Sequence record: OM386658.1
From: Escherichia phage vB_EcoM_ESCO32
Strand: one strand, 5' to 3'
DNA length: 64,000 nucleotides
Of the stretch, positions 21,060-53,703 are shown piece after piece. Every line of letters begins with the position of its first letter. Within the stretch, counting starts at the first letter, position 1. The translations under genes and the position numbers were made by a program. A model generated the notes under the pieces. It searched no databases, was not told the origin of the DNA, and worked only from the letters and a program-made list of their open reading frames with translations.

Positions 21060-21272
21060 TTAGTTGTTCCTGTACTTAGAGAACAAAGTATTGACCAACC
21101 AATCAGCAAACAGTAGTCCAAGTGTACCAATACCGTAACCAATAAGCATAATGTAAGGCACGGCTTTATTTTCATTACCTGTCATTACTTCGGGAAAAAT
21201 CAAAAATACGATACCGTTACCAACGATAATCCAAAACATAAGAAACACAAAAACACGAAGCAACATTCCCAT
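21060..21272 (-). CDS. small membrane protein (two predicted TM helices)
   Basis: Track ORF; AGGAGG SD; hydrophobic. Confidence 0.55.
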   Translation of the reverse strand: MGMLLRVFVFLMFWIIVGNGIVFLIFPEVMTGNENKAVPYIMLIGYGIGTLGLLFADWLVNTLFSKYRNN

Positions 21273-22899: not shown

Positions 22900-23142
22900 T
22901 TATTGAAGTTCAAAGATATCCCCATCTCCATCATATCCATACTCTAACTCTCCTGTATCATATAATACAATAAAGTCTGTATCATCTTCAATAAAAGATT
23001 TAGCATAATCTACTAACTCTTCATTATCTTCATACCCTTCCAGGTACTCAATACGACCATTGATACATTTAGCTGCAACAACTCCTGGGCCATTGCTTGG
23101 AGTCCACTCACTGTATACTCGCATACCTAATTCTTTAATCAT
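22900..23142 (-). CDS. hypothetical acidic protein
   Basis: Track ORF 22900..23163 trimmed to ATG after AGGAGA. Confidence 0.5.
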   Translation of the reverse strand: MIKELGMRVYSEWTPSNGPGVVAAKCINGRIEYLEGYEDNEELVDYAKSFIEDDTDFIVLYDTGELEYGYDGDGDIFELQ

Positions 23143-23359
23143 TGTTTGTCTCCTCATAATCAATGTAGTTGTAACACTTATTCTTTAAGAAATCTTCTGC
23201 TTGTTTCTTGTGTTTTAGAATGATGCACTTCTCTTTATTCTGTTCTACATCATTATGTAGATTGTATAAGTTAGATGCACCATACAGAATACCAATTAAC
23301 AAAAGCAAAAAGATTGCGGTTGATAACAAAAATTGTTGCAACTTGTTTACAGACTTCAT
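23135..23359 (-). CDS. membrane protein, paralogue of 27853..28071
   Basis: Track ORF; N-terminal TM helix; C-terminal KEKCIILKHKKQAEDFL shared with paralogue. Confidence 0.55.
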   Translation of the reverse strand: MKSVNKLQQFLLSTAIFLLLLIGILYGASNLYNLHNDVEQNKEKCIILKHKKQAEDFLKNKCYNYIDYEETNND

Positions 23360-27852: not shown

Positions 27853-28071
27853 TTACTCATACATTTGATAAGATACATAACGATTGCAATCAAGTGCGAG
27901 AAACTTTTCAGCATCTCTTTGATGCTTGAACACAATACACTGTTCTTTTTTAGCTGCACTTTCACGAGCTTCTCTTGCCATATACTCACCTAAACGAATG
28001 ATACTAGAGAATAACACGTATGCAAGAATAAGACAAATAGTGATTGCACAGAAAGTTTTAAACTTAACCAT
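27853..28071 (-). CDS. membrane protein, paralogue of 23135..23359
   Basis: Track ORF 27853..28101 trimmed to ATG after GGAGG; KEQCIVFKHQRDAEKFL shared with paralogue. Confidence 0.5.
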   Translation of the reverse strand: MVKFKTFCAITICLILAYVLFSSIIRLGEYMAREARESAAKKEQCIVFKHQRDAEKFLALDCNRYVSYQMYE

Positions 28072-33571: not shown

Positions 33572-33632
33572 GGCGGGAAACCATTTCCCGCCTTACGTGA
33601 TACATCTTAGTATAAGGGCGATCCGGTGTCAA
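33572..33632 (-). promoter_or_regulatory. PeSL-like cassette (early promoter + 5' stem-loop)
   Basis: Minus strand TTGACA - 17 nt - TAAGAT, then perfect 9-bp hairpin GGCGGGAAA-cca-TTTCCCGCC, then SD and ATG. Confidence 0.55.
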
Positions 33633-33645
33633 TAGATAAAGTTAA

Positions 33646-33882
33646 TTATTTTGCATAATCAATAACAGCGCATATTTTATCATTTACATCTTGTAAATCA
33701 AAGGCATAGGCGATCTTGCCTTGTAATTTTCCACGGGTGAAACAGATACGATAAACGCCGTTTTTACTGTCATCTTCTGATTTTAGTATTTTTGCAACTG
33801 TTGCAATTAACAGATCATCAGAGTAAGCGATAAAACCGCCACGTAAAATAGGTGATTTTTTGAGGATCATGACTTCTTTCAT
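33646..33882 (-). CDS. hypothetical protein
   Basis: Track ORF 33646..33930 trimmed to ATG after AGGAAAAG. Confidence 0.5.
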   Translation of the reverse strand: MKEVMILKKSPILRGGFIAYSDDLLIATVAKILKSEDDSKNGVYRICFTRGKLQGKIAYAFDLQDVNDKICAVIDYAK

Positions 33883-34303
33883 TTTCTTTTCCTGTTTTCG
33901 TTTTGGGTATGTTCTACCCTCTAAAAACAATATTAAACTGTTGTGATTTATCGGTCAATAGATGAGATTGTAAAGATTTGATAGTTTATTCCTTTGATGT
34001 TTTGTTATTTAATAGATATTAGCTATCAATATATAGCGGGATCTTCCGGTGATTATCTTCCCCTGTCCCCAGGTGCCGCCCGTTCCATAATAATAATCAA
34101 AAGCAGGATAAAAGGCAAGATAAAAGGCAAATTATTCCCTATGTGCTTTAAACGCTCTAAACAGCTTTCTAACAGCTTTTTCATCCTGGCAAGGTGATTA
34201 GTCATTGTTACCTTGTTTAAGCGGTTATAATCGGTTTTAGGCTGTTTTACGCCACCTTTTACGTTTATTCTTTACGTGTTACTTCCATCGTGAAAAAAGA
34301 ATA

Positions 34304-34335
34304 CAAAAAAGGGCGCTTAGTGCGCCCCTTTCTTT
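34304..34335 (-). terminator. rho-independent terminator
   Basis: GGGCGC-TTAGT-GCGCCC hairpin flanked by A and T runs. Confidence 0.6.
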
Positions 34336-34344
34336 TACCGTGTA

Positions 34345-34734
34345 TTAATATTCGTTATAATACATCGCTAACTTTTCATCAAAAGCCGATTGACGATCTG
34401 CATACTCCCAAAACATTTCTTGATCCTGTTGTTCGTCATCATCCATCATGTTGAATTGCGCAACCTCCTGGTAAGTGATCGCCATATTATAACGATAGGT
34501 GATCTCTTCTGCGATGTTTTCCGGTAAAGATGATTCTACACTGTCTAACAGCATATTTAACATCATTTCAGCCGCTTTTTCATCATTATCAAAGCAGTAA
34601 GCAGACCATGCCGCATGATGTTTATTTTTCATCTTTGCAATCAAGCCGTTGACTAAAAAAGGCGCTACGTTGTTAACGATACCCTGTAAAGATTGGAATT
34701 TTTCAACGTTAGAAACAGAAACCAGGTTGCGCAT
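34345..34734 (-). CDS. hypothetical acidic protein
   Basis: Track ORF 34345..34770 trimmed to ATG (longer form would run through the hairpin). Confidence 0.5.
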   Translation of the reverse strand: MRNLVSVSNVEKFQSLQGIVNNVAPFLVNGLIAKMKNKHHAAWSAYCFDNDEKAAEMMLNMLLDSVESSLPENIAEEITYRYNMAITYQEVAQFNMMDDDEQQDQEMFWEYADRQSAFDEKLAMYYNEY

Positions 34735-34757
34735 AGTATTTACCTTTTTGATTACCT

Positions 34758-34816
34758 GGCGGGAAACCATTTCCCGCCTACGTGGTAAATAATACCATAT
34801 TGGGGATCGGTGTCAA
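34758..34816 (-). promoter_or_regulatory. PeSL-like cassette
   Basis: TTGACA - 16 nt - TATTAT then GGCGGGAAA-cca-TTTCCCGCC hairpin. Confidence 0.55.
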
Positions 34817-34822
34817 TACTTT

Positions 34823-35209
34823 TTATTCAATATAAATCAAATTATCTTCACCAATGTAAGCATGCACCGATGGCATTAATTTAGCTGCATTTGTTAGGCG
34901 GTTGGCGGTGTTAGTAGTGTATATTTCAGGGCGATCCCAAAAGCCTACGCCGTGACCGTTACGGGTGAAATGTAAGTCATTCCCGATCTGGTTTGCTGTT
35001 GCGCCGTCGCTCATTGCCTCAGAGATAGCAGCATCATTGGCATCACAATAAGCCGCTACGTCATGAATGATCCGCTGATGGGCTTGATCTGAAAAATCAT
35101 AATCGTCTAAGTTATCAATAAAATAGCCTTCATGATCCCTGGCGGATTCAGCAAAAATAAAGGCTTCTTTATAACCGTTGATGATTTCAATAATGATTTC
35201 AGTTTTCAT
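34823..35209 (-). CDS. hypothetical protein
   Basis: Track ORF. Confidence 0.55.
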   Translation of the reverse strand: MKTEIIIEIINGYKEAFIFAESARDHEGYFIDNLDDYDFSDQAHQRIIHDVAAYCDANDAAISEAMSDGATANQIGNDLHFTRNGHGVGFWDRPEIYTTNTANRLTNAAKLMPSVHAYIGEDNLIYIE

Positions 35210-35421
35210 GCTGTACGCTCGACAATAATAATGGTTTGCGGTATCTCGTTTTCTACTACTAACAAGGCTTTTTTCTGTGTGATAGATATTTTAACACGTT
35301 GTAAAGTAGCGGTAAAATCTTTCATTTCATTATGCGCGGATTTAGTGCAATGCCATATTTCAGGTTTACCAATTTGCAAGCCGCGTAAAAATTCTGTTTT
35401 ACCTGTCTTATTCGTGATCAT
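35206..35421 (-). CDS. hypothetical protein
   Basis: Track ORF 35206..35439 trimmed to ATG after AAGGTG. Confidence 0.5.
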   Translation of the reverse strand: MITNKTGKTEFLRGLQIGKPEIWHCTKSAHNEMKDFTATLQRVKISITQKKALLVVENEIPQTIIIVERTA

Positions 35422-35431
35422 TTGATTCACC

Positions 35432-35536
35432 TTATCCAATACCGTGGGAAGATAGGATCATGTTAGCCATAGTTGCAACCAATCCAACCGATAACACCAG
35501 GCCAACTACTACAACCGTGAAAATTTTCTCTAACAT
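35432..35536 (-). CDS. small hydrophobic peptide, 34 aa
   Basis: MLEKIFTVVVVGLVLSVGLVATMANMILSSHGIG; GAGGGTAG SD; sits behind a PeSL-like cassette. Confidence 0.35.
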   Translation of the reverse strand: MLEKIFTVVVVGLVLSVGLVATMANMILSSHGIG

Positions 35537-35554
35537 GATTCTACCCTCATTAAT

Positions 35555-35616
35555 GGGCGTTGCCTTATTGCCCCGCCCTATGTCGTACACTTTACCAGAT
35601 AACTGAATATTGTCAA
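35555..35616 (-). promoter_or_regulatory. PeSL-like cassette (variant hairpin)
   Basis: TTGACA - 16 nt - TAAAGT then GGGCG...CGCCC hairpin; approx. Confidence 0.45.
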
Positions 35617-35617
35617 A

Positions 35618-35812
35618 CTATTTTTTACAAGGGATCAGTAAACTTCTTGCTACCGCTTCACGTAAACCTTTACTTTTTATTAAATCTATTGTTGCAGGGT
35701 GGCAAGTAAAAGCCTTTGACCATTTTTGATCACCTGGTTTACGGGCGAAAATGTAAACTTCTCCGTCGATTTCATCCCAACGAGTATTGCTTGTTAGTTT
35801 TTTAAGCGCCAT
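35618..35812 (-). CDS. hypothetical protein
   Basis: Track ORF 35618..35842 trimmed to ATG downstream of hairpin. Confidence 0.5.
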   Translation of the reverse strand: MALKKLTSNTRWDEIDGEVYIFARKPGDQKWSKAFTCHPATIDLIKSKGLREAVARSLLIPCKK

Positions 35813-35835
35813 GCTGATTTCTCTTTTAGTTATGA

Positions 35836-35891
35836 GCGGCACTATTGCCGCCCTACGAAATACATTCTACCCGATTTATAATTGTTGTCAA
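35836..35891 (-). promoter_or_regulatory. PeSL-like cassette
   Basis: TTGACA - 16 nt - TAGAAT then GCGGCA-ctat-TGCCGC hairpin. Confidence 0.5.
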
Positions 35892-35892
35892 A

Positions 35893-36162
35893 CTATTTTT
35901 TCAAGCTCGACCAGTCAAAACACGGGGCGATCTCGTTAAAACTTGTGCCCTGTAAAGCACATAATTTTTTAGCAATAGCCGCCGTGACCTGGCGCTGTAC
36001 GCGCGGATCTGCTACTGATTGGAGAAAGTAGGCGGCTTTATATGTGATCATGCTTTCGCCTGTTTCCTTGTTAACGTGGTGCACGGTTTTAGCCTTATCA
36101 TCTTTTACCAGGGTGTAACCGGATTCGATGGCCTTGATTGCAACGTCCAATGATATTTTCAT
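35893..36162 (-). CDS. hypothetical protein
   Basis: Track ORF. Confidence 0.55.
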   Translation of the reverse strand: MKISLDVAIKAIESGYTLVKDDKAKTVHHVNKETGESMITYKAAYFLQSVADPRVQRQVTAAIAKKLCALQGTSFNEIAPCFDWSSLKK

Positions 36163-36181
36163 GATTTATCTCTTTATTGAT

Positions 36182-36203
36182 GGCGGGGAATACTCCCCCC
36201 GCC
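36182..36203 (-). promoter_or_regulatory. leader stem-loop (PeSL-type hairpin without adjacent -35/-10)
   Basis: GGCGGGGAA-tact-CCCCCCGCC, about 20 nt upstream of gene 35893..36162 start. Confidence 0.4.
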
Positions 36204-36210
36204 TTATTAA

Positions 36211-36381
36211 TTACTCTTCATCGTCGCCGTTGTAGTATTCAATGCCGTTTTCATCGGTTACGGTAATATTAACGCCACCGATAGCAACACGATCACGGGC
36301 AAACGTCATGGCTTCATTTAAATCTTCAGACCAAAAAATATTGTGACCTTTGCGCGATACATAAAACATAGTCGGGATCAT
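36211..36381 (-). CDS. small protein, 56 aa
   Basis: ORF below threshold; AGAAGAGAAAC SD; behind a PeSL-like cassette. Confidence 0.4.
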   Translation of the reverse strand: MIPTMFYVSRKGHNIFWSEDLNEAMTFARDRVAIGGVNITVTDENGIEYYNGDDEE

Positions 36382-36404
36382 GATTTGTTTCTCTTCTGTT
36401 GTGA

Positions 36405-36464
36405 GCGGGAAACCACTTCCCGCCCTATGTGATAAACTTTACTACGTTGTTTTTCTGCTGTCAA
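36405..36464 (-). promoter_or_regulatory. PeSL-like cassette
   Basis: TTGACA - 17 nt - TAAAGT then GCGGGAA-accac-TTCCCGC hairpin. Confidence 0.5.
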
Positions 36465-36465
36465 A

Positions 36466-36750
36466 TTATTTTTTAATGTTTTGCCCTACAAAATTGATCA
36501 CTTCCTTAAGCTGTTTCTCAGTCATGATCGTGCCTGGTAATTCTTCTTTGATTTCTTCCGGTAAATAGATATTACCGCGCCAAGTTAATAAACAACAGTT
36601 TTGATCTTCGCAGATGGAATAAGAGAAGATCCACTCATTATCATTCTCAAGCTCCCAAAAGCACAAAAAATCTTCTTTCCCTAAGTTTTCAACGGTTAAG
36701 CATAATCCGCGACGTGCTGCATAGTTGGAAAGTGCTTTTGTGATCTTCAT
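36466..36750 (-). CDS. hypothetical Cys-rich protein
   Basis: Track ORF. Confidence 0.55.
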   Translation of the reverse strand: MKITKALSNYAARRGLCLTVENLGKEDFLCFWELENDNEWIFSYSICEDQNCCLLTWRGNIYLPEEIKEELPGTIMTEKQLKEVINFVGQNIKK

Positions 36751-36769
36751 AGCTTATCTCTTCTTTTAA

Positions 36770-36832
36770 GGCGGGGAAACCATTTCCCCGCTCTATGAGA
36801 TACAATATACTACCCGTTCGGTGTGCTGTCAA
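36770..36832 (-). promoter_or_regulatory. PeSL-like cassette
   Basis: TTGACA - 17 nt - TATATT then GCGGGGAAA-cca-TTTCCCCGC hairpin. Confidence 0.55.
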
Positions 36833-37156
36833 TCAATAATCTTCAATATTTTCTACATTGACAAAAGCATGTTTATTTTCTAAGTTTTCGCCGTACCATT
36901 GCCCCATGTTGATTTCTGCGGTGCGCAACCAGGACATGCCGCGTTGTATCTTTTTACTTGCAATCTCGATCCGGCTTTTGCATAGTGCTTTCGCTTGCAA
37001 TGTAAAAACACTATTGCCCTGTAATGCTTCCAGGTCATCATGTGCAAGGCGATACTCTTTAAAGCCTGATTCTATCATTTCAATAGCATCAAGTAAACGC
37101 GCGCGATGATAGAAAAAATCAGAGTTATCCAAATAAACACCGATCACAGATTTCAT
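36833..37156 (-). CDS. hypothetical protein
   Basis: Track ORF 36833..37216 trimmed to ATG after AAAAGGG. Confidence 0.5.
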   Translation of the reverse strand: MKSVIGVYLDNSDFFYHRARLLDAIEMIESGFKEYRLAHDDLEALQGNSVFTLQAKALCKSRIEIASKKIQRGMSWLRTAEINMGQWYGENLENKHAFVNVENIEDY

Positions 37157-37256
37157 AATTTTACCCTTTTGTTTGCGGCCTTTGCCGTTTTCAAGATATA
37201 TTTTAAAGCATAACAAAAAATTGTCAAACCTTTAAAGCGTACAACTATAAAACCTA

Positions 37257-37376
37257 TTAAAACACAATATATAACAACATGGCTATAGTAGCAATATAAC
37301 ATAAAACCATGCTTGTTTTCCTTCCTTCCTCATATGCTGGATTTATTACGCTATACTGTACGGGAATAACTTTCAT
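37257..37376 (-). CDS. small protein with hydrophobic C-terminus, 39 aa
   Basis: ORF below threshold; AAGGAAAC SD; approx. Confidence 0.3.
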   Translation of the reverse strand: MKVIPVQYSVINPAYEEGRKTSMVLCYIATIAMLLYIVF

Positions 37377-37385
37377 GTTGTTTCC

Positions 37386-37481
37386 TTAATGTCTTAAAAC
37401 GTGGTTTACAATAGAAACAAGTATACAGAAGAAAAAAGATCCTGACAATAAGATCCCGAAAAATAAATGTAAATAGGGCAT
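37386..37481 (-). CDS. small hydrophobic peptide, 31 aa
   Basis: MPYLHLFFGILLSGSFFFCILVSIVNHVLRH; strong TAAGGAG SD. Confidence 0.35.
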   Translation of the reverse strand: MPYLHLFFGILLSGSFFFCILVSIVNHVLRH

Positions 37482-37485
37482 GGTT

Positions 37486-37788
37486 TTACTCCTTAAAAAA
37501 ATCATTGACAATTAAACTGATAACGCCCAGCACCAGATCACCAGGTAGCGCCGCGCTTTCGTTGTTGCTTATTTGCACTTCCTCACTAGTACCAGCATGA
37601 TAAATCGCATGGTAAGCAATAGTATAATAACCTTTCGTTATTTCTTTAAGATTAATGATTAGCACGTTATTTGTTTCATCTTGAAACAATTTAGCGGTGA
37701 TAGTATTGTTTTCTTTTACACTATCGACTTTTATTGATGGATCAGTTACACCAGAAAAAAGAAAAAACGTTTTAGCTATGCCGTTCAT
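37486..37788 (-). CDS. hypothetical protein
   Basis: Track ORF; AAAGGAG SD. Confidence 0.6.
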   Translation of the reverse strand: MNGIAKTFFLFSGVTDPSIKVDSVKENNTITAKLFQDETNNVLIINLKEITKGYYTIAYHAIYHAGTSEEVQISNNESAALPGDLVLGVISLIVNDFFKE

Positions 37789-37835
37789 GTAGTTCTCCTT
37801 TGTTGTGTGTATCTTATAACGTGCTTTCTATGTTG

Positions 37836-38237
37836 TCAATCTTTTATCTCGGTGCATTTTGCTAGGGTATACGTTGCAAGTGCTGACACTAGTTTTTCAT
37901 TGCTACGATCTGCGGCTGTACTGTGTACTTTTTGAATACTTTTTAGCCACGGCGTAAAGTTTTGAGTAGTAAGCACACTAGTAATAATTTCACATGGCAC
38001 GTTTTCATTTAAACCGTTAGCTATAGATTTATCTATTTTTGCCGTTAGTTGTGTAACAGCACCATAAGCGATCATGTGTGAATCCTCCATGATTTCATCG
38101 GGGATCGCATTATTAATGATCATCACGTTTTCCATTGCATCAACGGCGCTTAATTCTGCTACTGTGGAGGATATTGCCGCGTGAGATGTTCCAACCATGC
38201 CAAAAGAGATTAAACCAGCGATCAATAATTTTTTCAT
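37836..38237 (-). CDS. predicted secreted/periplasmic protein (signal peptide)
   Basis: Track ORF trimmed to MKKLLIAGLISFGMVGTSHA-AISS: n/h/c regions with AxA-type cleavage site. Confidence 0.55.
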   Translation of the reverse strand: MKKLLIAGLISFGMVGTSHAAISSTVAELSAVDAMENVMIINNAIPDEIMEDSHMIAYGAVTQLTAKIDKSIANGLNENVPCEIITSVLTTQNFTPWLKSIQKVHSTAADRSNEKLVSALATYTLAKCTEIKD

Positions 38238-38245
38238 TTCTTGCC

Positions 38246-38428
38246 TCATATATGTTTTATTGAGATTATATTGTCACTATATACAACGTTTTTCAACGTG
38301 TCAATAAAAATCTTATTGCCTTCAATCCCCAGGATCACGCCGCTAGTTATGAAGCCATATTGATCACGGTATCGGGCGCATAACCTTTGCCCCTGGGCTA
38401 GTGCCTTGCTTATTTCTTCTAATCTCAT
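38246..38428 (-). CDS. hypothetical protein
   Basis: Track ORF; AGGAG SD. Confidence 0.55.
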   Translation of the reverse strand: MRLEEISKALAQGQRLCARYRDQYGFITSGVILGIEGNKIFIDTLKNVVYSDNIISIKHI

Positions 38429-38517
38429 TTTAAAGCTCCTGTAAAGCCGTCTAACGTTGATTTATAGGCTTGCCCTGGCGTTACCATTGCCTATGGGTAA
38501 CAAGCCTCTATATAAGC

Positions 38518-38546
38518 TAAAAGGGCGCTTATTGCGCCCTTTTTTG
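38518..38546 (-). terminator. rho-independent terminator
   Basis: GGGCGC-TTATT-GCGCCC hairpin plus T-run. Confidence 0.6.
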
Positions 38547-38684
38547 TTATTCGTTCCAGTATCTTTTTGTGCTGCGATCTCTTTTTGTTTTGTTCCGCTT
38601 ATCGCCTTTCTTGGTGATCTCTTCGTTCCAATTTTTACGCGCCTTGCTGCGGTTGAATTTTTCGATCTGCTGTGATGCGTTCAT
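38547..38684 (-). CDS. small basic protein, 45 aa
   Basis: ORF below threshold; AGAGGAAAAAAC SD and own terminator. Confidence 0.4.
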   Translation of the reverse strand: MNASQQIEKFNRSKARKNWNEEITKKGDKRNKTKRDRSTKRYWNE

Positions 38685-38699
38685 GTTTTTTCCTCTTAA

Positions 38700-39059
38700 T
38701 TACGCCACGTTATGCTGTTTTGCCAGGATTACGATCATGCTTGCAATATATAACCAATAATTTTCCCGCTCACGGGTAACGGTTGTTTCTTTGCTTGTTT
38801 CTTTTATGTACTTCCATTCAATTAACAAGTGATCGATCTCGTTATAATCAAAAGCAATATTGACTTCTGACGGTAAACCTTGTAACCATGAGGCTATTGC
38901 CTTGATCACGTTATAATTGTAACGTTTTTGATTATCGGGATACCAGTATTCAGAGTTAAAACGGCGCATCAGTTCGGTGATCTTTTCTTTTTCGGTTGTA
39001 GTACCATCAAAAGAAATAGCCGACACAATGTAAGTTTTAATTGCTTTTACTGATTTCAT
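38700..39059 (-). CDS. hypothetical protein
   Basis: Track ORF; behind PeSL-like cassette. Confidence 0.6.
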   Translation of the reverse strand: MKSVKAIKTYIVSAISFDGTTTEKEKITELMRRFNSEYWYPDNQKRYNYNVIKAIASWLQGLPSEVNIAFDYNEIDHLLIEWKYIKETSKETTVTRERENYWLYIASMIVILAKQHNVA

Positions 39060-39079
39060 AATCTTATCTCTTTATTGAT

Positions 39080-39139
39080 GGCGGGAAACCATTTCCCGCC
39101 GTTGTTGTTACTTTACTTATAAATGATGCTACTGTCAAA
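39080..39139 (-). promoter_or_regulatory. PeSL-like cassette
   Basis: TTGACA - 17 nt - TAAAGT then GGCGGGAAA-cca-TTTCCCGCC hairpin then conserved leader ATCAATAAAGAGATAA. Confidence 0.55.
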
Positions 39140-39145
39140 CGGATA

Positions 39146-39316
39146 TTATTTGTTTTTTAACGTTAATGTTCCCAGCTTATCAGCGTGACGCAGACCAGGA
39201 AAGATCCATTTTCCTGATTCATCTTTTACCGGGGCTTTAAGCGTAGCGCCCAGATTGGCGGCATTAACTTTACGTGCAACGTTGCGAGCGGCTTCACGGG
39301 TGGCGAAAGTGATCAT
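39146..39316 (-). CDS. small protein, 56 aa
   Basis: ORF below threshold; AGAGGAAAACACC SD; behind PeSL-like cassette. Confidence 0.4.
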   Translation of the reverse strand: MITFATREAARNVARKVNAANLGATLKAPVKDESGKWIFPGLRHADKLGTLTLKNK

Positions 39317-39340
39317 GGTGTTTTCCTCTTCTCTTTGTTA

Positions 39341-39401
39341 GGCGGTGGGCTATTCCACCGCCTTGATGAATATAGTTTACTTTATTTTGTTAAGATTGCA
39401 A
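39341..39401 (-). promoter_or_regulatory. PeSL-like cassette (variant)
   Basis: TTGCAA - 16 nt - TAAACT then GGCGGTGG-gctatt-CCACCGCC hairpin. Confidence 0.45.
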
Positions 39402-39407
39402 GCGGTT

Positions 39408-39623
39408 TTATGAAATAATTGTCAAAGTAAAATCATAATCTTTTGACAGTTTATATTGTACCTTGTTCCCGTAATAGTCACCTTTACGTAAAGATCCGCG
39501 AATACCTATTACATCCTTTACATCTTTAAGATTTTTCACGCCTGTAATGTCTTTATTGAAATGATCGTGATCAGAAAATAAAACCTGCTTTGCATTTTTT
39601 AACAATGTGCGGATATTAGCCAT
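39408..39623 (-). CDS. hypothetical protein
   Basis: Track ORF. Confidence 0.55.
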   Translation of the reverse strand: MANIRTLLKNAKQVLFSDHDHFNKDITGVKNLKDVKDVIGIRGSLRKGDYYGNKVQYKLSKDYDFTLTIIS

Positions 39624-39645
39624 TTGATAATCTCTCTCACTATGA

Positions 39646-39701
39646 GCGGCACTATTGCCGCCCTATGAATTACATTTTACTAATTTTAGTTATCTTGTCA
39701 A
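39646..39701 (-). promoter_or_regulatory. PeSL-like cassette
   Basis: TTGACA - 16 nt - TAAAAT then GCGGCA-ctat-TGCCGC hairpin. Confidence 0.5.
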
Positions 39702-39709
39702 TATTATTT

Positions 39710-39937
39710 TTAGTTTAATGCATCCAGGCACAACAAGCGATCAACATTTAGATCGGTTAGGCTAATCGTTGGCACCTGGTAGGATTCGATATATTCGACG
39801 CTCGACCACTGACCAAAATTAGCGACCGCCCAGCTATTCAAGGAAGAGTGAAGATCATCCCCTTTCTTCTCTGTGATGACTGCTACTACCTGGGAGCTTC
39901 CAACCGTACCGGATACGCGAACAATAACGATAGCCAT
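39710..39937 (-). CDS. hypothetical protein
   Basis: Track ORF. Confidence 0.55.
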   Translation of the reverse strand: MAIVIVRVSGTVGSSQVVAVITEKKGDDLHSSLNSWAVANFGQWSSVEYIESYQVPTISLTDLNVDRLLCLDALN

Positions 39938-39959
39938 AATTATAACCTTTCTTTGATTT

Positions 39960-40019
39960 GGCGGGAAACCATTTCCCGCCCTATGTGATAAACTATACCA
40001 GAATATAAAACGTTGTCAA
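39960..40019 (-). promoter_or_regulatory. PeSL-like cassette
   Basis: TTGACA - 16 nt - TATAGT then GGCGGGAAA-cca-TTTCCCGCC hairpin. Confidence 0.55.
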
Positions 40020-40028
40020 CTGTTTTTA

Positions 40029-40268
40029 TTACATTCCAACCATAGCGGCACGGATTGCAGTTTTACTATACTTGAATCCGTCCGGTGTTTTATCTTGTCC
40101 AGTTTGCTCCAGGAATAACATCATATCACGCGCGGCATCATTCTTATTTGTATTAGCTGCGATAAATTCACGCGCAAGATTATAAAAACCTTCATCGTTG
40201 TTGATCCAAAGGCTTACATTCCAATGAGTTTTGTTTTTGTGACCGTTGTACATTTTAGATTTAGCCAT
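40029..40268 (-). CDS. hypothetical protein
   Basis: Track ORF 40029..40325 trimmed to ATG downstream of hairpin. Confidence 0.5.
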   Translation of the reverse strand: MAKSKMYNGHKNKTHWNVSLWINNDEGFYNLAREFIAANTNKNDAARDMMLFLEQTGQDKTPDGFKYSKTAIRAAMVGM

Positions 40269-40292
40269 GATGTTAATCTCTTTTTCAGTGAG

Positions 40293-40351
40293 GCGGGAAC
40301 TATTCCCGCTCTCTATGCAAAACATTATACGCCTTTAAACCTAGTTTGCAA
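40293..40351 (-). promoter_or_regulatory. PeSL-like cassette
   Basis: TTGCAA - 16 nt - TATAAT then GCGGGAA-ctat-TCCCGC hairpin. Confidence 0.5.
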
Positions 40352-40370
40352 GTGCTTTTTAAAAATATGC

Positions 40371-40601
40371 TTAGATTGCAATCGCGTCTAGGCTATAATA
40401 ATAATAAGTGCCGTATTGGTGTACTTTATTACCTTTTATTTCAGTGCTGAATGAATCCGAACGATTAGCATATGATGTTAATTTATAATACTTTGCTTTA
40501 CTAATACGTTGCCATACACCGCAGATCCGCTGTAAGTAAGTAGTTTTATTAGTAGTAGTATCTTTTACGGTTTTAACTTCGGTCATATACATATTAGCCA
40601 T
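40371..40601 (-). CDS. hypothetical protein
   Basis: Track ORF 40371..40634 trimmed to ATG downstream of hairpin. Confidence 0.5.
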   Translation of the reverse strand: MANMYMTEVKTVKDTTTNKTTYLQRICGVWQRISKAKYYKLTSYANRSDSFSTEIKGNKVHQYGTYYYYSLDAIAI

Positions 40602-40621
40602 TTTATTATACCTAGTTATAG

Positions 40622-40683
40622 GCGGGGGAACCATTCCCCCGTCCTGATATGAAACATTTTACGCTTTTTATTCGTGCTGTCAA
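40622..40683 (-). promoter_or_regulatory. PeSL-like cassette
   Basis: TTGACA - 16 nt - TAAAAT then GCGGGGGAA-cca-TTCCCCCG hairpin. Confidence 0.5.
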
Positions 40684-40689
40684 TGCTTT

Positions 40690-41055
40690 TTATAAATCTT
40701 TTTTACGTTTAACATCGCTTGCATGACTGTATACAGCGATCCCATTGTCACGGCAAAAACGGGAAAGGTAAGCATAATTTGAAAAGTCTTTGCCTTCCAG
40801 GTTGATGACCTTGCTAAACTCTTCCAGGGCAACGGTATCAAAATGATCCCCGTAACCATAGTGAAACGGAACGTTAACGACTTCAATCAGTTTACCGCCG
40901 ATCTCAACGTCAACCATCAAAGAGAAATAAGTATTACCATAAGACTTTTGAAACCAGCGACGGGCGCTAATATGTACCGCTTCAATGCTGGATAGTTCAA
41001 TTTTAGCAGTGTTAGCCAGGGTAGCATAAGCAGAAACATTGATATTTTTAGCCAT
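40690..41055 (-). CDS. hypothetical protein
   Basis: Track ORF. Confidence 0.55.
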   Translation of the reverse strand: MAKNINVSAYATLANTAKIELSSIEAVHISARRWFQKSYGNTYFSLMVDVEIGGKLIEVVNVPFHYGYGDHFDTVALEEFSKVINLEGKDFSNYAYLSRFCRDNGIAVYSHASDVKRKKDL

Positions 41056-41150
41056 AGTCTTTAATCTCTTTTGATTAGTTAGGAGTATTCCCGATAAAAG
41101 TTATTATGCTTGTACTATCGTTCGTTGTCAATAGCACAAGACTAAAACTT

Positions 41151-41330
41151 TTAACGATAATCATCATATGCTTTATTGACCTGGCGAATATAGCATTCAA
41201 AAGCTAGATCAATAGATTTATATTCACGGATATAATTACCATAGGAAACCACATACATTTCTATAGCTTCCTCATATGCCAGGAGGATAGAATCTAAACC
41301 TACGATCTCAGTCTTCGCAATAATAGCCAT
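41151..41330 (-). CDS. hypothetical protein, 59 aa
   Basis: ORF just below track threshold; TAAGGAATAAAAGC SD; own TTGACA-16-TATAAT promoter. Confidence 0.45.
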   Translation of the reverse strand: MAIIAKTEIVGLDSILLAYEEAIEMYVVSYGNYIREYKSIDLAFECYIRQVNKAYDDYR

Positions 41331-41389
41331 GCTTTTATTCCTTAGTAATGTTTCAATCTATATAAGCATTATAGCTTACTGATTTTAGG

Positions 41390-41472
41390 TGTCAACTGAT
41401 TTTTTATTTCACCTTTGAGAAGTTGCCCCGCTCTATGTGGTACATATTACGGGGCTTGTTTGCATATGTCAA
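41390..41472 (-). promoter_or_regulatory. tandem sigma70-like promoters with variant leader hairpin
   Basis: Two TTGACA boxes about 77 nt apart with TATAAT / TAATAT -10 elements and GCCCCG...CGGGGC hairpin between them; approx. Confidence 0.4.
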
Positions 41473-41475
41473 CCC

Positions 41476-42030
41476 TTACACAATGCAATTTTCATAATTT
41501 TTTAAGGCTTGTATTTTTTCCTCTTCTGTCGGCGTGTATGGCTGGATCTCTTCCTCTTCCATGTTAGGCATGATTTCTTCCTCTTCCTCCTGGTCGTCCT
41601 GGTCTTCCTCTTGCGCTATGGTAACAAGTTTATTGATCTTCTCCTGGGCTTTAATCAATTTTGCATCTAGCACCATTTTAGCGGTGTTGTATACAGTCCA
41701 TGCCATGCGCTTTTCTTCGTATGCCTTATCTAGTGCGGCTAATTTAGCGGGATACTCTTCTAACACCTTAAAAGCCGGATCAATGCTATATAAGGGATTA
41801 TTTTTAGCGTCATCGCTTGGATCTGCGGCGCTTGCAATGTCAGCGTTACCGTTTGCCAGCCAACCAGGGCGAACGGATCGCGTCTTTGTGTGACCGTTGC
41901 TCTTTGCCGCTCGATTCCCTATCTGCTCCCCGCTGTACCCTACCATGTGATCGATCATGTCATCTGGTATTATGCGCGGATCATTAGCGTCATGCTTTAC
42001 CCATGACTGGATCACATATTCACGCCCCAT
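41476..42030 (-). CDS. hypothetical protein with acidic coiled-coil C-terminus
   Basis: Track ORF. Confidence 0.6.
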   Translation of the reverse strand: MGREYVIQSWVKHDANDPRIIPDDMIDHMVGYSGEQIGNRAAKSNGHTKTRSVRPGWLANGNADIASAADPSDDAKNNPLYSIDPAFKVLEEYPAKLAALDKAYEEKRMAWTVYNTAKMVLDAKLIKAQEKINKLVTIAQEEDQDDQEEEEEIMPNMEEEEIQPYTPTEEEKIQALKNYENCIV

Positions 42031-42292
42031 GTTCGTTCGCCTCTTCTGTTAGTAGTTTACACACCTTAAACATGCTTGCCGCGTCTTTTGACGGTAGCCA
42101 GCCTATGCGATACACTCCAGGATCTGGATTCGTTATATCCGTTAGTTGGGCATTACGATGATTAAAAATAGTGTAACCGCCGCCAGCACGGGGATAAACA
42201 TTATCTTTAAACCTGATAGCGTATCTCGCCAGGTTGAACGTCGTAGCATGTTCAAAAGCGATCACATTATCAAAAACTTTTAGAAAAAACAA
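42020..42292 (-). CDS. hypothetical protein
   Basis: Track ORF, TTG start 7 nt after GGAGGA. Confidence 0.5.
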   Translation of the reverse strand: MFFLKVFDNVIAFEHATTFNLARYAIRFKDNVYPRAGGGYTIFNHRNAQLTDITNPDPGVYRIGWLPSKDAASMFKVCKLLTEEANEHGA

Positions 42293-42294
42293 GA

Positions 42295-42441
42295 TTATCC
42301 TCCCCAGCGTTTAAAGCCCGTTGCACGGTTATTTTTTAACTCTCGTTTTAGTCTCTTGCAACGGTTTACAAGTGCAAACCGTGCCGGAGTGGTAACAGTA
42401 GCGCCGTTTTTGGTGTGAATACTCATTACATATTGTTTCAT
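42295..42441 (-). CDS. small basic protein, 48 aa
   Basis: ORF below threshold; AGGATAAAA SD; behind PeSL-like cassette. Confidence 0.35.
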   Translation of the reverse strand: MKQYVMSIHTKNGATVTTPARFALVNRCKRLKRELKNNRATGFKRWGG

Positions 42442-42460
42442 AAAGTTTTATCCTATGTAA

Positions 42461-42513
42461 GCGGGAACTATTCCCGCTTTAAGATAGCTTATCAGGTTTT
42501 AGTGCAATGTCAA
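42461..42513 (-). promoter_or_regulatory. PeSL-like cassette
   Basis: TTGACA - 16 nt - TAAGCT then GCGGGAA-ctat-TCCCGC hairpin. Confidence 0.5.
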
Positions 42514-42519
42514 CCGTTT

Positions 42520-42882
42520 TTATTCGTAAATTTTACCGCTTTCCACCCATACCATAACACGGCGCATGTTATCCCATGCATCTTGTCGCAGATTTAAGGC
42601 ATGCAATTCTTCCGTGGTGCTCATACCTGGAACGGGCTTATTATACGTTACAAAGAGATCGCCAGCATATTCATAAGCCAGGGTAAGATCACATTGAATC
42701 ATCTTTTTAATCATAGCATCAAGCATCATATTAGCGGCATGTTGATCACGTTTTAACGGTAATGTCGCGATCTGTGTGCGATAGCTTTCGATCCGTGCAT
42801 CCACTGCATCACGCGAAAGATTTTTCACGTCATCGCGGAAAGATACCAGGTTTAACATGATAGTATTGATTTGCTTGCTCAT
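42520..42882 (-). CDS. hypothetical protein
   Basis: Track ORF. Confidence 0.6.
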   Translation of the reverse strand: MSKQINTIMLNLVSFRDDVKNLSRDAVDARIESYRTQIATLPLKRDQHAANMMLDAMIKKMIQCDLTLAYEYAGDLFVTYNKPVPGMSTTEELHALNLRQDAWDNMRRVMVWVESGKIYE

Positions 42883-42904
42883 TGTGTTACCCTTTCTTTG
42901 ATTT

Positions 42905-42964
42905 GGCGGGAAACCATTTCCCGCCCTATGTGGTATATATTACTAAATTATTTTTCAGTGTCAA
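42905..42964 (-). promoter_or_regulatory. PeSL-like cassette
   Basis: TTGACA - 16 nt - TAATAT then GGCGGGAAA-cca-TTTCCCGCC hairpin. Confidence 0.55.
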
Positions 42965-47716: not shown

Positions 47717-48154
47717 TTATTTTTGTTGAGATGAACGAATTAAATCAGCAGCAAATTCAATCAGATACACTTTTGGTGCAATAATGATTTTTAGCCAATC
47801 AAAATTCGAAAAGAAAATAACAAATCCTAAAAAGAAAAAGAAAGCACAGACAACAAGGCCAACAATAGGTAAAGCAGATACTTCACCATAGCGATCTCGT
47901 GACCACAGGCATTCTTTATCTTTAATTGCTTTTACGAGGTTCCGCACAGCAATAAAAGTAATAAACATAAAGCAAATACTAAAAAGTTGCCATAAACCTG
48001 CGGATACTGCTTTCCACACTAATAGTTGATGGATTACTTCTGGAATTTGTTGTTTTCCAAACTCTACAACATCACTCATTGTTTGAATAGTGACGTTAAC
48101 CATGTTCAGAAGTACATCCGTTGCTTTATCTGCGATTGCGTTTGTTTTACTCAT
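47717..48154 (-). CDS. membrane protein (multiple TM helices)
   Basis: Track ORF; hydrophobic segments. Confidence 0.55.
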   Translation of the reverse strand: MSKTNAIADKATDVLLNMVNVTIQTMSDVVEFGKQQIPEVIHQLLVWKAVSAGLWQLFSICFMFITFIAVRNLVKAIKDKECLWSRDRYGEVSALPIVGLVVCAFFFFLGFVIFFSNFDWLKIIIAPKVYLIEFAADLIRSSQQK

Positions 48155-48168: not shown

Positions 48169-48342
48169 TTACCTTTTAAGGAAACCAATCATAATGAAGA
48201 ACCACATCCAGGCAGGAGAGATAATAAAGCCAAAGAAACCGCAAATAACCGCTTTCTTAATCTCTTCCAGACAACCCACCAGGAAAAGAACGAGTGAGAC
48301 TACAATCCAAATAGCCATAAATACTGTAACAAAGAAACTCAT
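48169..48342 (-). CDS. small membrane protein, 57 aa
   Basis: ORF below threshold; GGAGAAAGG SD; two hydrophobic segments. Confidence 0.4.
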   Translation of the reverse strand: MSFFVTVFMAIWIVVSLVLFLVGCLEEIKKAVICGFFGFIISPAWMWFFIMIGFLKR

Positions 48343-51348: not shown

Positions 51349-51555
51349 ATGGATATTACTACACTAAAGTTTATACTTCTCTTCTTACTTATAGTTATAG
51401 GATTAATTGTTATACCCTATCTATATGTCTACATGTTATCTCGTAAGTATGGTTATGAGCGTATACCATTTTACTATTTAATACCTGTCTTAGTTATCTA
51501 TCTATTTCTCTTTTGTAGATATTGTCCTGAACTAGTCCTGAACATTGGAAGTTAG
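51349..51555 (+). CDS. small membrane protein
   Basis: Track ORF; AGGAGAA SD; two hydrophobic helices. Confidence 0.55.
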   Translation: MDITTLKFILLFLLIVIGLIVIPYLYVYMLSRKYGYERIPFYYLIPVLVIYLFLFCRYCPELVLNIGS

Positions 51556-52131: not shown

Positions 52132-52600
52132 CATATGGGGTAGAATGGGTGAAGACCATGACTACTATTGCTTGAAAAGTAACGTTGAACAGGCAGATGT
52201 TGATCAAATTATAAAGCACTACCTGAAAACATGGCGTGAGGTGGAGTTTAGAGAGTTCGCTATCCTCCATAGTCAAGAAGGAGAAAAGGAGATAGACATG
52301 AGTACACTAACTAAAGCAGTACAAACGCATAAGGAATACGAGGAAGCAGTTAAAGACGAAGTGAACCCTACTTCACTGACGTTCGAAAACCTTACTCCTT
52401 TATTTTGGTCATATGATGGTAATGAAATTTTTACACATGATACACCAGAGGCTGTTAAAAATTGGGAAGGCTGTTGTAATTCCTATGAGGTATTATATGT
52501 CGTAGAAGAAGATGATACGTACATTATGTTCCGCATAGATAACGGTTGTGGTGATCAGTGGGATATTGTTCTTTCTAAACATTTGCAATTGGGTGGTTAA
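52118..52600 (+). CDS. hypothetical protein
   Basis: Track ORF. Confidence 0.55.
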   Translation: MTMYSIWGRMGEDHDYYCLKSNVEQADVDQIIKHYLKTWREVEFREFAILHSQEGEKEIDMSTLTKAVQTHKEYEEAVKDEVNPTSLTFENLTPLFWSYDGNEIFTHDTPEAVKNWEGCCNSYEVLYVVEEDDTYIMFRIDNGCGDQWDIVLSKHLQLGG

Positions 52601-52601: not shown

Positions 52602-52964
52602 ATGCTAAAGTACCTGATGATCACTTGGTTATGTTTACTTTCATTTGCGGGACATGCAACAGAGGGTTTTAAACTTGGTGCTGACGGTACTAAATTCTTT
52701 ACATATTGGGGTGGGAAAGCCTTATACCAAGAAGAAAAGAATAGCATAGAGTGTACGGTTAGTAAGAAGATTAAATCAGTAGATCAATATGGGGATGCCT
52801 ATACTGGTGTAGGTTTTAACTGTGGAAAAGATTTATTTCTATTTGTTAAGAAGTATTTAGATGTTAACCTTGTATTGCTTATTGTTGTAGATCCTGCTAA
52901 GTTTGAAGAGCGTAAAGCATATCGTGCAGATATGTTCCTAGAATATGATGATAAGGAGAAATAA
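52602..52964 (+). CDS. predicted secreted protein (signal peptide)
   Basis: Track ORF 52548..52964 trimmed to ATG 52602; MLKYLMITWLCLLSFAGHA-TEG signal-peptide-like N-terminus. Confidence 0.5.
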   Translation: MLKYLMITWLCLLSFAGHATEGFKLGADGTKFFTYWGGKALYQEEKNSIECTVSKKIKSVDQYGDAYTGVGFNCGKDLFLFVKKYLDVNLVLLIVVDPAKFEERKAYRADMFLEYDDKEK

Positions 52965-53315
52965 ATGCTTGATGTAATTATTAATGGTGTTAAATATATT
53001 CCTTATGTAGAGAAAAGCAATCCTGATGCCTTGGATGTTATGTTTGAGGATTCAGATCTTGGTACTGTCACTGTACGGGAATATTTCCGACAACTACTCT
53101 CTACGTTATGGAGAGAAGAAGAGTGTTTTAATGGTAAACGTCCATTTGGTAACTCATGCTGGCAATTTGATATGATCCGCGCCTTAATTGAGGCAGGGTA
53201 TATTGAAGGTACAGTTGTGTACGATGAAGATGGATATCCAGAAGAGACTGACTACGACAGCAAAGAAGCTAATAAATTTATACAGGGCTTGATTGCACAG
53301 ATGTGTTTGGGTTAA
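52965..53315 (+). CDS. hypothetical protein
   Basis: Track ORF; AAGGAG SD. Confidence 0.55.
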   Translation: MLDVIINGVKYIPYVEKSNPDALDVMFEDSDLGTVTVREYFRQLLSTLWREEECFNGKRPFGNSCWQFDMIRALIEAGYIEGTVVYDEDGYPEETDYDSKEANKFIQGLIAQMCLG

Positions 53316-53316
53316 T

Positions 53317-53703
53317 ATGAAAGTATTAAATTTTTACCACTTAGGTAAAGTAATACCTGAAGGTGCAGTTTACATTGGCAGAGCTATGCCTCATATGGGG
53401 TTAAAAGCCTCAAAGTTTGCAAATCCTTTTAAGTTAAAGGATGATGAACCACGAGGGTCAACTATACAAAGATATAAAGAGTGGTTGTGGGAACAAATTC
53501 GTTGTGGTAAAATCACTCTTGAGGATTTGTTAGAATTAGAAGGGAAAGACTTAGTTTGCTTCTGCGCACCTCAACCTTGTCATGGTGATGTGTTGGTAGC
53601 AGCGGTTGCTTGGGCTAGAACAGAGTGGGATAAAAGGCATCCTACTTACACAGATGATTATTGGATTTGGGAGGATATTTATGAAGACTACACAAGAAAT
53701 TAA
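53317..53703 (+). CDS. DUF4326-like protein
   Basis: Track ORF trimmed to ATG 53317; YIGRAMP...FANPF...CFCAPQPCHGDVL motif pattern recalled for DUF4326. Confidence 0.45.
   Translation: MKVLNFYHLGKVIPEGAVYIGRAMPHMGLKASKFANPFKLKDDEPRGSTIQRYKEWLWEQIRCGKITLEDLLELEGKDLVCFCAPQPCHGDVLVAAVAWARTEWDKRHPTYTDDYWIWEDIYEDYTRN

What the first reader, a model, noticed from the sequence alone, without database searches (positions are those of the whole stretch)
37836..38237. Phage-encoded proteins with signal peptides
The 37836..38237 product (MKKLLIAGLISFGMVGTSHA-) and the 52602..52964 product (MLKYLMITWLCLLSFAGHA-) have classic n/h/c signal-peptide organisation. Exported phage proteins made early are candidates for periplasmic immunity or superinfection-exclusion functions.
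Basis: inference. Interest (0 to 1): 0.4.

Follow-up and report, generated by a model that had tools for sequence, protein, structure and literature searches.

The report
Two exported small phage proteins
Two small genes of this phi92-like E. coli phage do encode proteins with cleavable export signals that should end up in the periplasm, but this is already annotated in the phi92 reference genome, and nothing found here shows what they do.

Summary
The window is a phi92-like phage (Justusliebigvirus, about 97% identical to many records). The two ORFs are orthologues of Phi92_gp239 (37836..38237, minus strand) and Phi92_gp204 (52602..52964, plus strand).

New evidence for export:
- Every divergent homologue (31-55% identity) keeps a basic n-region, a 12-17-residue uncharged core and an A at -1, although the signal sequence itself has drifted.
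- Every mature protein has exactly two invariant cysteines.
- AlphaFold leaves residues 1-20 of gp239 unstructured and folds the rest as a confident four-helix bundle (pLDDT 86). gp204 is a small all-beta domain (pLDDT 70).

Early expression is plausible: gp239 has its own near-consensus sigma-70 promoter. Superinfection exclusion remains an untested analogy. Interest is low to moderate.

The parts
37836..38237 (-). ORF A, orthologue of Phi92_gp239: 133-aa precursor of a small secreted protein (stop codon 37836..37838)
   Evidence: It differs from phi92 at 14 synonymous and 4 non-synonymous codons.
38178..38237 (-). Signal peptide of ORF A (residues 1-20, MKKLLIAGLISFGMVGTSHA), predicted Sec/SPase I type
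   Evidence: sig_peptide feature in the phi92 record. The architecture is conserved in 6 divergent homologues. AlphaFold pLDDT is about 40 for residues 1-20.
37839..38177 (-). Mature ORF A protein: 113 aa, pI 4.7, four-helix bundle, invariant Cys82 and Cys128 (precursor numbering)
   Evidence: AlphaFold model with pLDDT 86 and helices 24-41, 47-77, 82-101, 107-132. Invariant columns; cysteine counts.
38244..38247 (-). Ribosome-binding site GAGG, 6 nt upstream of the ORF A ATG
   Evidence: Read from the sequence; annotated at the same place in phi92.
38276..38304 (-). Sigma-70-type promoter TTGACA-17-TATAGT, inside the 3' end of the gp238-like gene and 39 nt upstream of the ORF A start
   Evidence: Equivalent sites lie about 40 nt upstream of the homologues in L003 and L008.
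37811..37839 (-). Next promoter (TTGACA-17-TAAGAT), for the gp240-like gene; its -35 hexamer contains the ORF A stop codon
   Evidence: The same arrangement occurs in L024.
52602..52964 (+). ORF B, orthologue of Phi92_gp204: 120-aa precursor of a second secreted protein
   Evidence: (100% identical to phi92 gp204).
52602..52658 (+). Signal peptide of ORF B (residues 1-19, MLKYLMITWLCLLSFAGHA)
   Evidence: sig_peptide feature in the phi92 record, cleavage probability 0.990. Conserved in Phapecoctavirus and Klebsiella-phage homologues.
52659..52961 (+). Mature ORF B protein: 101 aa, pI 5.5, all-beta domain, invariant Cys51 and Cys74
   Evidence: AlphaFold model with pLDDT 70 and 7-8 strands. Invariant columns; cysteine counts.

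Best explanation
Both ORFs are real, conserved phage genes whose products are exported by the Sec pathway. Signal peptidase I cleaves them after residue 20 (gp239-like) and residue 19 (gp204-like). They then stay as small, soluble, mildly acidic periplasmic proteins, each probably stabilised by one disulfide. Export itself I rate at about 0.9.

gp239-like is a compact four-helix bundle. gp204-like is a small beta-barrel or beta-sandwich. Neither shows any sign of being an enzyme. The most likely mode of action is stoichiometric binding of a partner in the cell envelope.

The gp239-like gene is probably transcribed by unmodified host RNA polymerase soon after infection, from its own sigma-70 promoter.

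My best guess for the role is inference only. I think the proteins protect the already-infected cell at the envelope level. That could mean blocking the entry apparatus or a peptidoglycan hydrolase of later-arriving phages, giving superinfection exclusion or resistance to lysis from without. This is the logic of T4 Spackle, but reached independently and not by common descent.
For: Shown here:
- The ORFs, start codons and ribosome-binding sites are in the sequence.
- The orthologues carry SignalP features in NC_023693.
- The n/h/c architecture and an AxA-type site are kept in all homologues at 31-55% identity.
- Every mature family member has exactly two cysteines, at fixed spacing: 46 residues in family A (43 in one member) and 23 in family B.
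- Purifying selection is evident: 14 synonymous against 4 non-synonymous codon differences for A, and 4 against 0 for B.
- AlphaFold leaves residues 1-20 of A unstructured and folds the rest with pLDDT above 90.
- Near-consensus promoter sites are strongly enriched, 36 found against 4.55 expected, with one directly upstream of A that is positionally conserved in L003 and L008.

Inferred:
- Cys82 lies at the start of helix 3 and Cys128 near the end of the antiparallel helix 4. That geometry fits a disulfide.
- T4 Spackle is likewise an early, exported, 75-aa acidic helical bundle with one disulfide (PMC7677548).
- In Phapecoctavirus, the slot between the gp238-like and gp240-like genes holds a 68-aa protein with two hydrophobic, transmembrane-like segments instead of gp239. 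The slot therefore seems to carry envelope-directed cargo.
Against: - There is no experimental or homology link to any exclusion function.
- hhalign of the mature A profile against a 5-sequence mature Spackle profile gives probability 0.14%.
- The only Pfam T4_Spackle hit is one family member at 18 bits, below the 27-bit cut-off. The hhalign results suggest it is driven by the signal peptide.
- PADLOC finds nothing.
- I did not identify a tail-associated lysozyme in these phages that could be a target.
- Early timing is inferred from promoter consensus only.
- SignalP was not run on the window proteins themselves.
Confidence: 0.35

Rival explanations
1. The proteins are exported as described, but they act on the host rather than on competing phages. 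They would bind and inhibit or redirect a host periplasmic or outer-membrane component, for example a peptidoglycan-remodelling enzyme, a protease, an envelope-stress sensor or the capsule or colanic-acid export machinery. The effect would be to keep the infected cell stable or to condition its surface.
For: The structural evidence is the same as for the best explanation: small binder-like folds with no catalytic signature. Both families are confined to one phage lineage that targets encapsulated Enterobacteria. The small beta-barrels most similar to gp204 in the PDB are periplasmic inhibitor or ligand-binding proteins: PliC/MliC, ToxS/VtrC and a T6SS immunity protein.
Against: No host partner is identified. 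No homologue occurs in bacterial genomes that could hint at a host pathway. This reading is as speculative as the exclusion reading.
Confidence: 0.3
2. One or both proteins regulate lysis timing from the periplasm, in the manner of an antiholin (T4 RI) or an endolysin or spanin modulator.
For: T4 RI is also a small periplasmic protein. gp239 is helical, has two cysteines and is about the size of spanin or antiholin periplasmic domains.
Against: - hhalign against T4 RI finds nothing for either family.
- The N-termini look cleavable, with 12-17-residue cores and AxA sites. They do not look like SAR or transmembrane anchors.
- Neither gene is next to an identified lysis gene. Both sit among early or replication-type genes.
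- phi92 and phAPEC8 share one spanin family (PMC6139136), yet tblastn found no gp239 homologue in any Phapecoctavirus record.
- AlphaFold gives a compact bundle, not an extended coiled coil.
Confidence: 0.12
3. gp204-like is specifically a periplasmic lysozyme inhibitor of the MliC/PliC type.
Against: - The model is only pLDDT 70, built from 3 sequences.
- hhalign of the family profile against an MliC/PliC profile gives probability 0.3%.
- The conserved SxSGAxY and W[ST]KG loop motifs, taken from my three-sequence alignment of PDB members, are absent from gp204.
- The cysteine pair is 23 residues apart, whereas in E. coli MliC the two cysteines lie near the two ends of the mature chain.
- Pfam MliC does not hit.
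Confidence: 0.1
4. The hydrophobic N-termini are not cleaved signal peptides. Instead they are membrane anchors, or the proteins stay in the cytoplasm.
For: SignalP was not run here on the window sequences. My simple heuristic also fires on non-coding-frame ORFs. The window's gp239 has His at -2 where phi92 has Ser.
Against: - The uncharged cores are only 12-17 residues.
- Small residues at -1 and -3 are kept in all homologues.
- SignalP 3.0 gives P of at least 0.998 for the orthologues, and the gp204 orthologue is 100% identical to the window protein.
- Each mature domain has an invariant cysteine pair.
- The AlphaFold model does not pack residues 1-20 against the fold.
Confidence: 0.05

Closest known systems
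Phi92_gp239 (YP_009012572.1) and Phi92_gp204 (YP_009012537.1) of Escherichia phage phi92
   Same: They are direct orthologues, 97% and 100% identical, in the same genomic positions. Both are already annotated with SignalP signal peptides cleaved after residues 20 and 19.
   Different: There is no biological difference. The window's gp239 has four substitutions (H19S, I40L, A73V, N79D, written window residue first). Both are annotated only as hypothetical proteins, and I found no functional study.
T4 Spackle (gp61.3), periplasmic inhibitor of the gp5 tail lysozyme
   Same: Spackle is an early phage gene with a Sec signal peptide. Its product is a small acidic alpha-helical bundle with exactly two cysteines forming one disulfide (PMC7677548; pI values). 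This is the closest functional analogy for gp239.
   Different: - The mature protein is 75 aa, against 113 aa for gp239.
- No similarity is detectable outside the signal peptide: hhalign on mature profiles gives probability 0.14%.
- The cysteines are placed differently.
MliC/PliC periplasmic inhibitors of C-type lysozyme (PDB 2f09, 3oe3, 4mir)
   Different: There is no profile similarity (probability 0.3%). The inhibitory loop motifs are absent and the cysteine placement differs. The gp204 family occurs only in phages.
T4 RI antiholin; T5 Llp and Cor receptor-blocking lipoproteins
   Same: They are phage-encoded envelope proteins made to control superinfection or lysis.
   Different: RI uses a SAR anchor and shows no similarity to either family. 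Llp and Cor are lipoproteins, whereas neither window protein has a lipobox cysteine at +1.

Membership tests
Sec/SPase I secreted proteins (general class) | Positively charged n-region, 7-15-residue hydrophobic h-region, polar c-region with small residues at -3 and -1 | tested here: met
   MKK/LLIAGLISFGMVG/TSHA|A and MLK/YLMITWLCLLSFAG/HA|T. The architecture is kept in all homologues. SignalP 3.0 features exist for the orthologues.
Sec/SPase I secreted proteins (general class) | Actual translocation and cleavage | not testable with these tools
   This needs PhoA or Bla fusions, cell fractionation, or N-terminal mass spectrometry.
Bacterial lipoproteins (Llp, Cor, o-spanin type) | Lipobox [LVI][ASTVI][GAS]C with Cys at +1 | tested here: not met
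   There is no cysteine at or near the cleavage site of ORF A. The cysteine inside the ORF B h-region (TWLC) has Leu at -1 and is not conserved in homologues.
T4 Spackle (Pfam PF25676) | Score above the Pfam gathering threshold, or profile-profile similarity in the mature domain | tested here: not met
   Only P0007 hits, at 18 bits against a 27-bit cut-off. The window protein has no hit. hhalign aligns only residues 1-12. Mature against mature gives probability 0.14%.
T4 Spackle (Pfam PF25676) | Binding and inhibition of a tail-spike lysozyme | not testable with these tools
   This needs biochemistry.
T4 RI antiholin | Sequence or profile similarity to RI; SAR-type N-terminus | tested here: not met
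   hhalign probability is 0.06% for family A and 0.29% for family B. The N-termini look like cleavable signal peptides.
MliC/PliC lysozyme inhibitors (Pfam PF09864) | Eight-stranded beta-barrel fold | tested here: inconclusive
MliC/PliC lysozyme inhibitors (Pfam PF09864) | Conserved SxSGAxY and W[ST]KG loop motifs; Pfam or profile match | tested here: not met
   The motifs were taken from an alignment of three PDB members and are absent from gp204. hhalign probability is 0.3%. There is no Pfam hit.
Cytochrome b562 (periplasmic four-helix bundle) | Profile similarity; Met and His haem ligands | tested here: not met
Two-component spanins (Rz-type i-spanin) | N-terminal transmembrane anchor, extended coiled-coil periplasmic domain, partner o-spanin lipoprotein gene, lysis-cassette context | tested here: not met
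   The h-region is short and followed by a cleavage site. The protein is a compact bundle. No neighbouring gene shows a lipoprotein signal, and the setting is an early-gene array. phi92 and phAPEC8 share their spanin family, while tblastn found no gp239 homologue in any Phapecoctavirus record.
Known anti-phage defence proteins (PADLOC-DB) | HMM match | tested here: not met
   Neither protein matches any family, even at E up to 1.

The most novel reading that the evidence does not exclude
gp239-like and/or gp204-like proteins are founding members of new, lineage-specific periplasmic superinfection-exclusion or envelope-protection factors of Stephanstirmvirinae. They would have folds unrelated to Spackle, RI, Imm or Llp, and would act by binding an incoming phage's entry machinery or a host envelope protein. 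The four-helix bundle of gp239 has no specific relative in the PDB or in BFVD.
Probability: 0.25. Interest if true: 0.5.

Novelty: already known. Interest (0 to 1): 0.22.

Why it matters
Very few periplasm-directed proteins of virulent coliphages have a known function (for example Spackle, RI and Llp; this is my own recollection). Those that do control superinfection, receptor masking or lysis timing.

phi92-like phages are being isolated for therapeutic use and appear in reference phage collections. Two conserved, lineage-restricted exported proteins are therefore reasonable targets for a small trans-expression or knock-out study.

The existence of the signal peptides is not new, and nothing here points to an unexpected mechanism. 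The practical gain from this work is a sharper description: cleavage sites, a conserved cysteine pair in each protein, predicted folds, family boundaries, a dedicated promoter, and a list of known families that these proteins do not belong to.

Tried and rejected
- **Family libraries.** Pfam, NCBIfam, PHROGs and PADLOC scans of both proteins and of all family members found only function-unknown PHROGs (27054, 5474) and signal-peptide-driven noise such as Dr_adhesin and T4_Spackle.
- **PDB sequence search** with the family profiles found nothing below E = 0.1.
- **Word-indexed search** of 5.8 billion proteins found only near-identical clusters.
- **Exhaustive HMMER search** for gp239 found six real relatives, plus one 742-aa repeat protein (P0009) that I judged spurious.
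- **Chimeric alignment trick.** I joined families A and B in one alignment to get both into the last search. It returned P0005, P0008 and P0010, but the candidate cap limited it.
- **Specific family tests** against Spackle, RI, cytochrome b562 and MliC/PliC were all negative.
That model rests on 3 sequences.
- **The search for related loci** with the gp239 alignment failed because no stretch is conserved enough.
- **Bacterial genomes.** The scan for gp204 relatives found none.
- **Neighbouring genes** have no informative Pfam hits apart from DUF4326.
- **Klebsiella phage 05F01.** The 'superinfection exclusion protein' annotated near its gp204 homologue is an unrelated acidic protein with no export signal.
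- **RNA genes.** There are no tRNAs and no Rfam families in the window.
- **Literature.** Searches found no functional work on these genes.

Full report
**Identity of the window**

Megablast of 36500-39500 and 51500-54000 against GenBank phages gives 96-99% identity over the full length to dozens of phi92-like phages (genus Justusliebigvirus, subfamily Stephanstirmvirinae), including phi92 itself. The first flagged ORF (37836..38237) lies on the minus strand and is the orthologue of Phi92_gp239. The second (52602..52964, plus strand) is the orthologue of Phi92_gp204.

**The observation**

Both ORFs are present as described.

- ORF A starts at the ATG at 38237, six bases after a GAGG ribosome-binding site. 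An upstream in-frame ATG at 38249 overlaps the stop codon of the preceding gene and has no ribosome-binding site.
- ORF B starts at 52602, two bases after the upstream stop codon (52598..52600) and five bases after a GGGTGG site.
- The N-termini are MKK-LLIAGLISFGMVG-TSHA|A and MLK-YLMITWLCLLSFAG-HA|T.

The phi92 RefSeq record already carries sig_peptide features for exactly these two genes. SignalP 3.0-HMM gives probabilities 1.000 and 0.998, with cleavage after residues 20 and 19. They are the only two such features in the 31.6 kb covering gp189-gp248. The window's gp204 is 100% identical to that of phi92. The window's gp239 differs from phi92 at four residues, one of them in the signal peptide (His against Ser at position -2).

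**Is it more than chance?**

A home-made n/h/c scan of every ATG ORF of at least 50 aa in all six frames gave 12 hits. Several were in obviously non-coding frames, so the pattern alone is weak evidence. Comparative evidence is much stronger.

Family A (gp239-like):
- An exhaustive HMMER search of 1.84 billion representative proteins found only six true relatives, 126-135 aa long and 31-43% identical.
- tblastn of the phage collection added two Klebsiella phage records at 34% identity, apparently versions of one phage, phi1_175008.

Family B (gp204-like):
- tblastn found 125 phage records. Among them are Phapecoctavirus and Klebsiella phages at 37-55% identity.
- One metagenomic cluster also belongs to the family.

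In every member of both families:
- The signal-peptide sequence has drifted.
- The basic n-region is kept.
- The uncharged core is 12-17 residues long.
- The cleavage site is of the AxA type.

Every mature protein has exactly two cysteines at fixed spacing. The spacing is 46 residues in family A (43 in one member) and 23 in family B. This is what one expects of periplasmic proteins oxidised by DsbA. Codon differences from phi92 are mostly synonymous: 14 against 4 for A, and 4 against 0 for B. There is no lipobox and no twin-arginine motif.

**Structure**

AlphaFold2 with the seven-sequence family A alignment gives a confident model (mean pLDDT 86, pTM 0.77). Residues 1-20 are unstructured (pLDDT about 40), and four helices follow at 24-41, 47-77, 82-101 and 107-132. 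Cys82 opens helix 3 and Cys128 lies near the end of the antiparallel helix 4. A disulfide staple is therefore geometrically plausible.

- Foldseek against BFVD finds only the family itself.

**Family tests**

- Pfam, NCBIfam and PADLOC give nothing. PHROGs gives two families of unknown function.
- One family A member (P0007) hits Pfam T4_Spackle at 18 bits, below the 27-bit cut-off.
- hhalign of the family against T4 Spackle aligns only residues 1-12. With signal peptides removed from both profiles, the probability is 0.14%.
- T4 RI shows nothing for either family.
- Cytochrome b562 gives probability 25%, driven by the signal peptide.
- For gp204, an MliC/PliC profile built from PDB sequences gives probability 0.3%. 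The SxSGAxY and W[ST]KG motifs of that family are absent.
- A spanin role is excluded by four points: the cleavable N-terminus, the compact fold, the genomic context, and the fact that phi92 and phAPEC8 share their spanins while no gp239 homologue was found in Phapecoctavirus records.

**Context and timing**

The pattern TTGACA-N16-18-TANNNT occurs 36 times in the window against 4.55 expected. Most sites are on the minus strand between 33.6 and 43 kb, roughly one in front of each small gene.

- ORF A has its own site, TTGACA-17-TATAGT at 38304..38276, 39 nt from its ATG.
- Equivalent sites lie 40-41 nt upstream of the homologues in Klebsiella phage phi1_175008 and in a 153 kb metagenomic phage contig.
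- The stop codon of ORF A lies inside the -35 hexamer of the next promoter.

This fits expression by host RNA polymerase early in infection, but I found no transcript data.

ORF B sits in a translationally coupled plus-strand operon (gp209 to the UvrD-like helicase gp198), with candidate promoters near 49.8-50.1 kb.

All family A homologues whose contigs could be read lie in about 150 kb phage contigs, or in short fragments with the same gene order: a gp238-like gene, then the gp239-like gene, then a gp240-like gene. In Phapecoctavirus the same slot holds a 68-aa protein with two hydrophobic, transmembrane-like segments instead. No gp204 relative was found in 185,579 species' genomes. Four were found in IMG/VR, on phage contigs of 87-153 kb.

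**Interpretation**

What is established:
- The genes are real and under purifying selection.
- The signal-peptide architecture is conserved.
- Each mature protein has an invariant cysteine pair.
- The mature domains are small and non-enzymatic in appearance.
- Both families are restricted to this phage lineage.
- gp239 has a dedicated sigma-70-type promoter.

What is inferred:
- Export and cleavage actually occur (probability about 0.9).
- Each cysteine pair forms a disulfide.
- The genes are expressed early.

What remains a guess is the role. The closest analogy for gp239 is T4 Spackle, an early, exported, acidic 75-aa helical bundle with one disulfide that blocks the tail lysozyme of superinfecting phages (PMC7677548). 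The resemblance is architectural, not ancestral. I give an exclusion or envelope-protection role about 0.35, a host-directed envelope role about 0.3, lysis control about 0.12, and a specific MliC/PliC-like inhibitor role for gp204 about 0.1.

**Verdict**

The finding duplicates existing annotation, and no evidence here raises it above 'two uncharacterised exported phage proteins'. Novelty: already known. Interest is low to moderate.

Noticed in passing
window 33600-43000, minus strand (for example 41395..41368, 40019..39992, 38304..38276, 37227..37200): There is a dense array of near-consensus sigma-70 promoters, roughly one per small gene. TTGACA-N16-18-TANNNT occurs 36 times in the window against 4.55 expected. 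This looks like an early-gene region read by unmodified host RNA polymerase.
   Followed up: partly
window 23135..23359 (-) and 27853..28071 (-): Two paralogous proteins of about 73 aa have an N-terminal hydrophobic anchor and a shared C-terminal motif with two conserved cysteines (BLASTP E = 4e-9).
   Followed up: partly
window 47717..48154 (-), 48169..48342 (-), 51349..51555 (+), 21060..21272 (-): Several small proteins have strongly hydrophobic, transmembrane-like segments. Two of them are adjacent and might be lysis- or membrane-related genes.
   Followed up: no
L013 2214..2420 (Phapecoctavirus anhysbys), syntenic with window 37836..38237: Between the gp238-like and gp240-like genes, Phapecoctavirus carries a 68-aa protein with two hydrophobic segments where Justusliebigvirus has the secreted gp239. 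The slot seems to exchange envelope-directed cargo.
   Followed up: partly
window 37836..37839 and L024 2924..2952: The TGA stop codon of the gp239-like gene lies inside the -35 TTGACA hexamer of the promoter for the next gene. A promoter site likewise overlaps the 3' end of the homologous gene in a divergent metagenomic relative (L024).
   Followed up: partly
window 53293..53703 (+): The gene annotated 'ribonucleotide reductase NrdA-like' in relatives matches Pfam DUF4326 (E = 1.8e-21) and nothing else in Pfam. The NrdA-like label looks like a legacy misannotation.
   Followed up: partly
GenBank records MG065645, MG065689, MG065656, MG065650 (hits H55, H56, H126, H135): Several records named 'Campylobacter phage', with host given as C. 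jejuni, match this E. coli phage. Three carry gp239 or gp240 products 96-98% identical to the window's, while MG065650 matches gp240 at only 29% like Phapecoctavirus. The host assignment looks doubtful.
   Followed up: no
L025 31271..31613 (phi92 148270..148612): In phi92 the gp239 gene lies only about 5 kb from the right direct terminal repeat. The window runs through the position that corresponds to the phi92 record ends, so the source record is permuted or oriented differently from phi92.
   Followed up: no
P0009 (742 aa): This is a metagenomic protein made of about five near-identical repeats of roughly 125 aa. It gave a weak hit (E = 1e-4) to residues 15-66 of gp239. I judged the hit a repeat-inflated false positive.
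   Followed up: no
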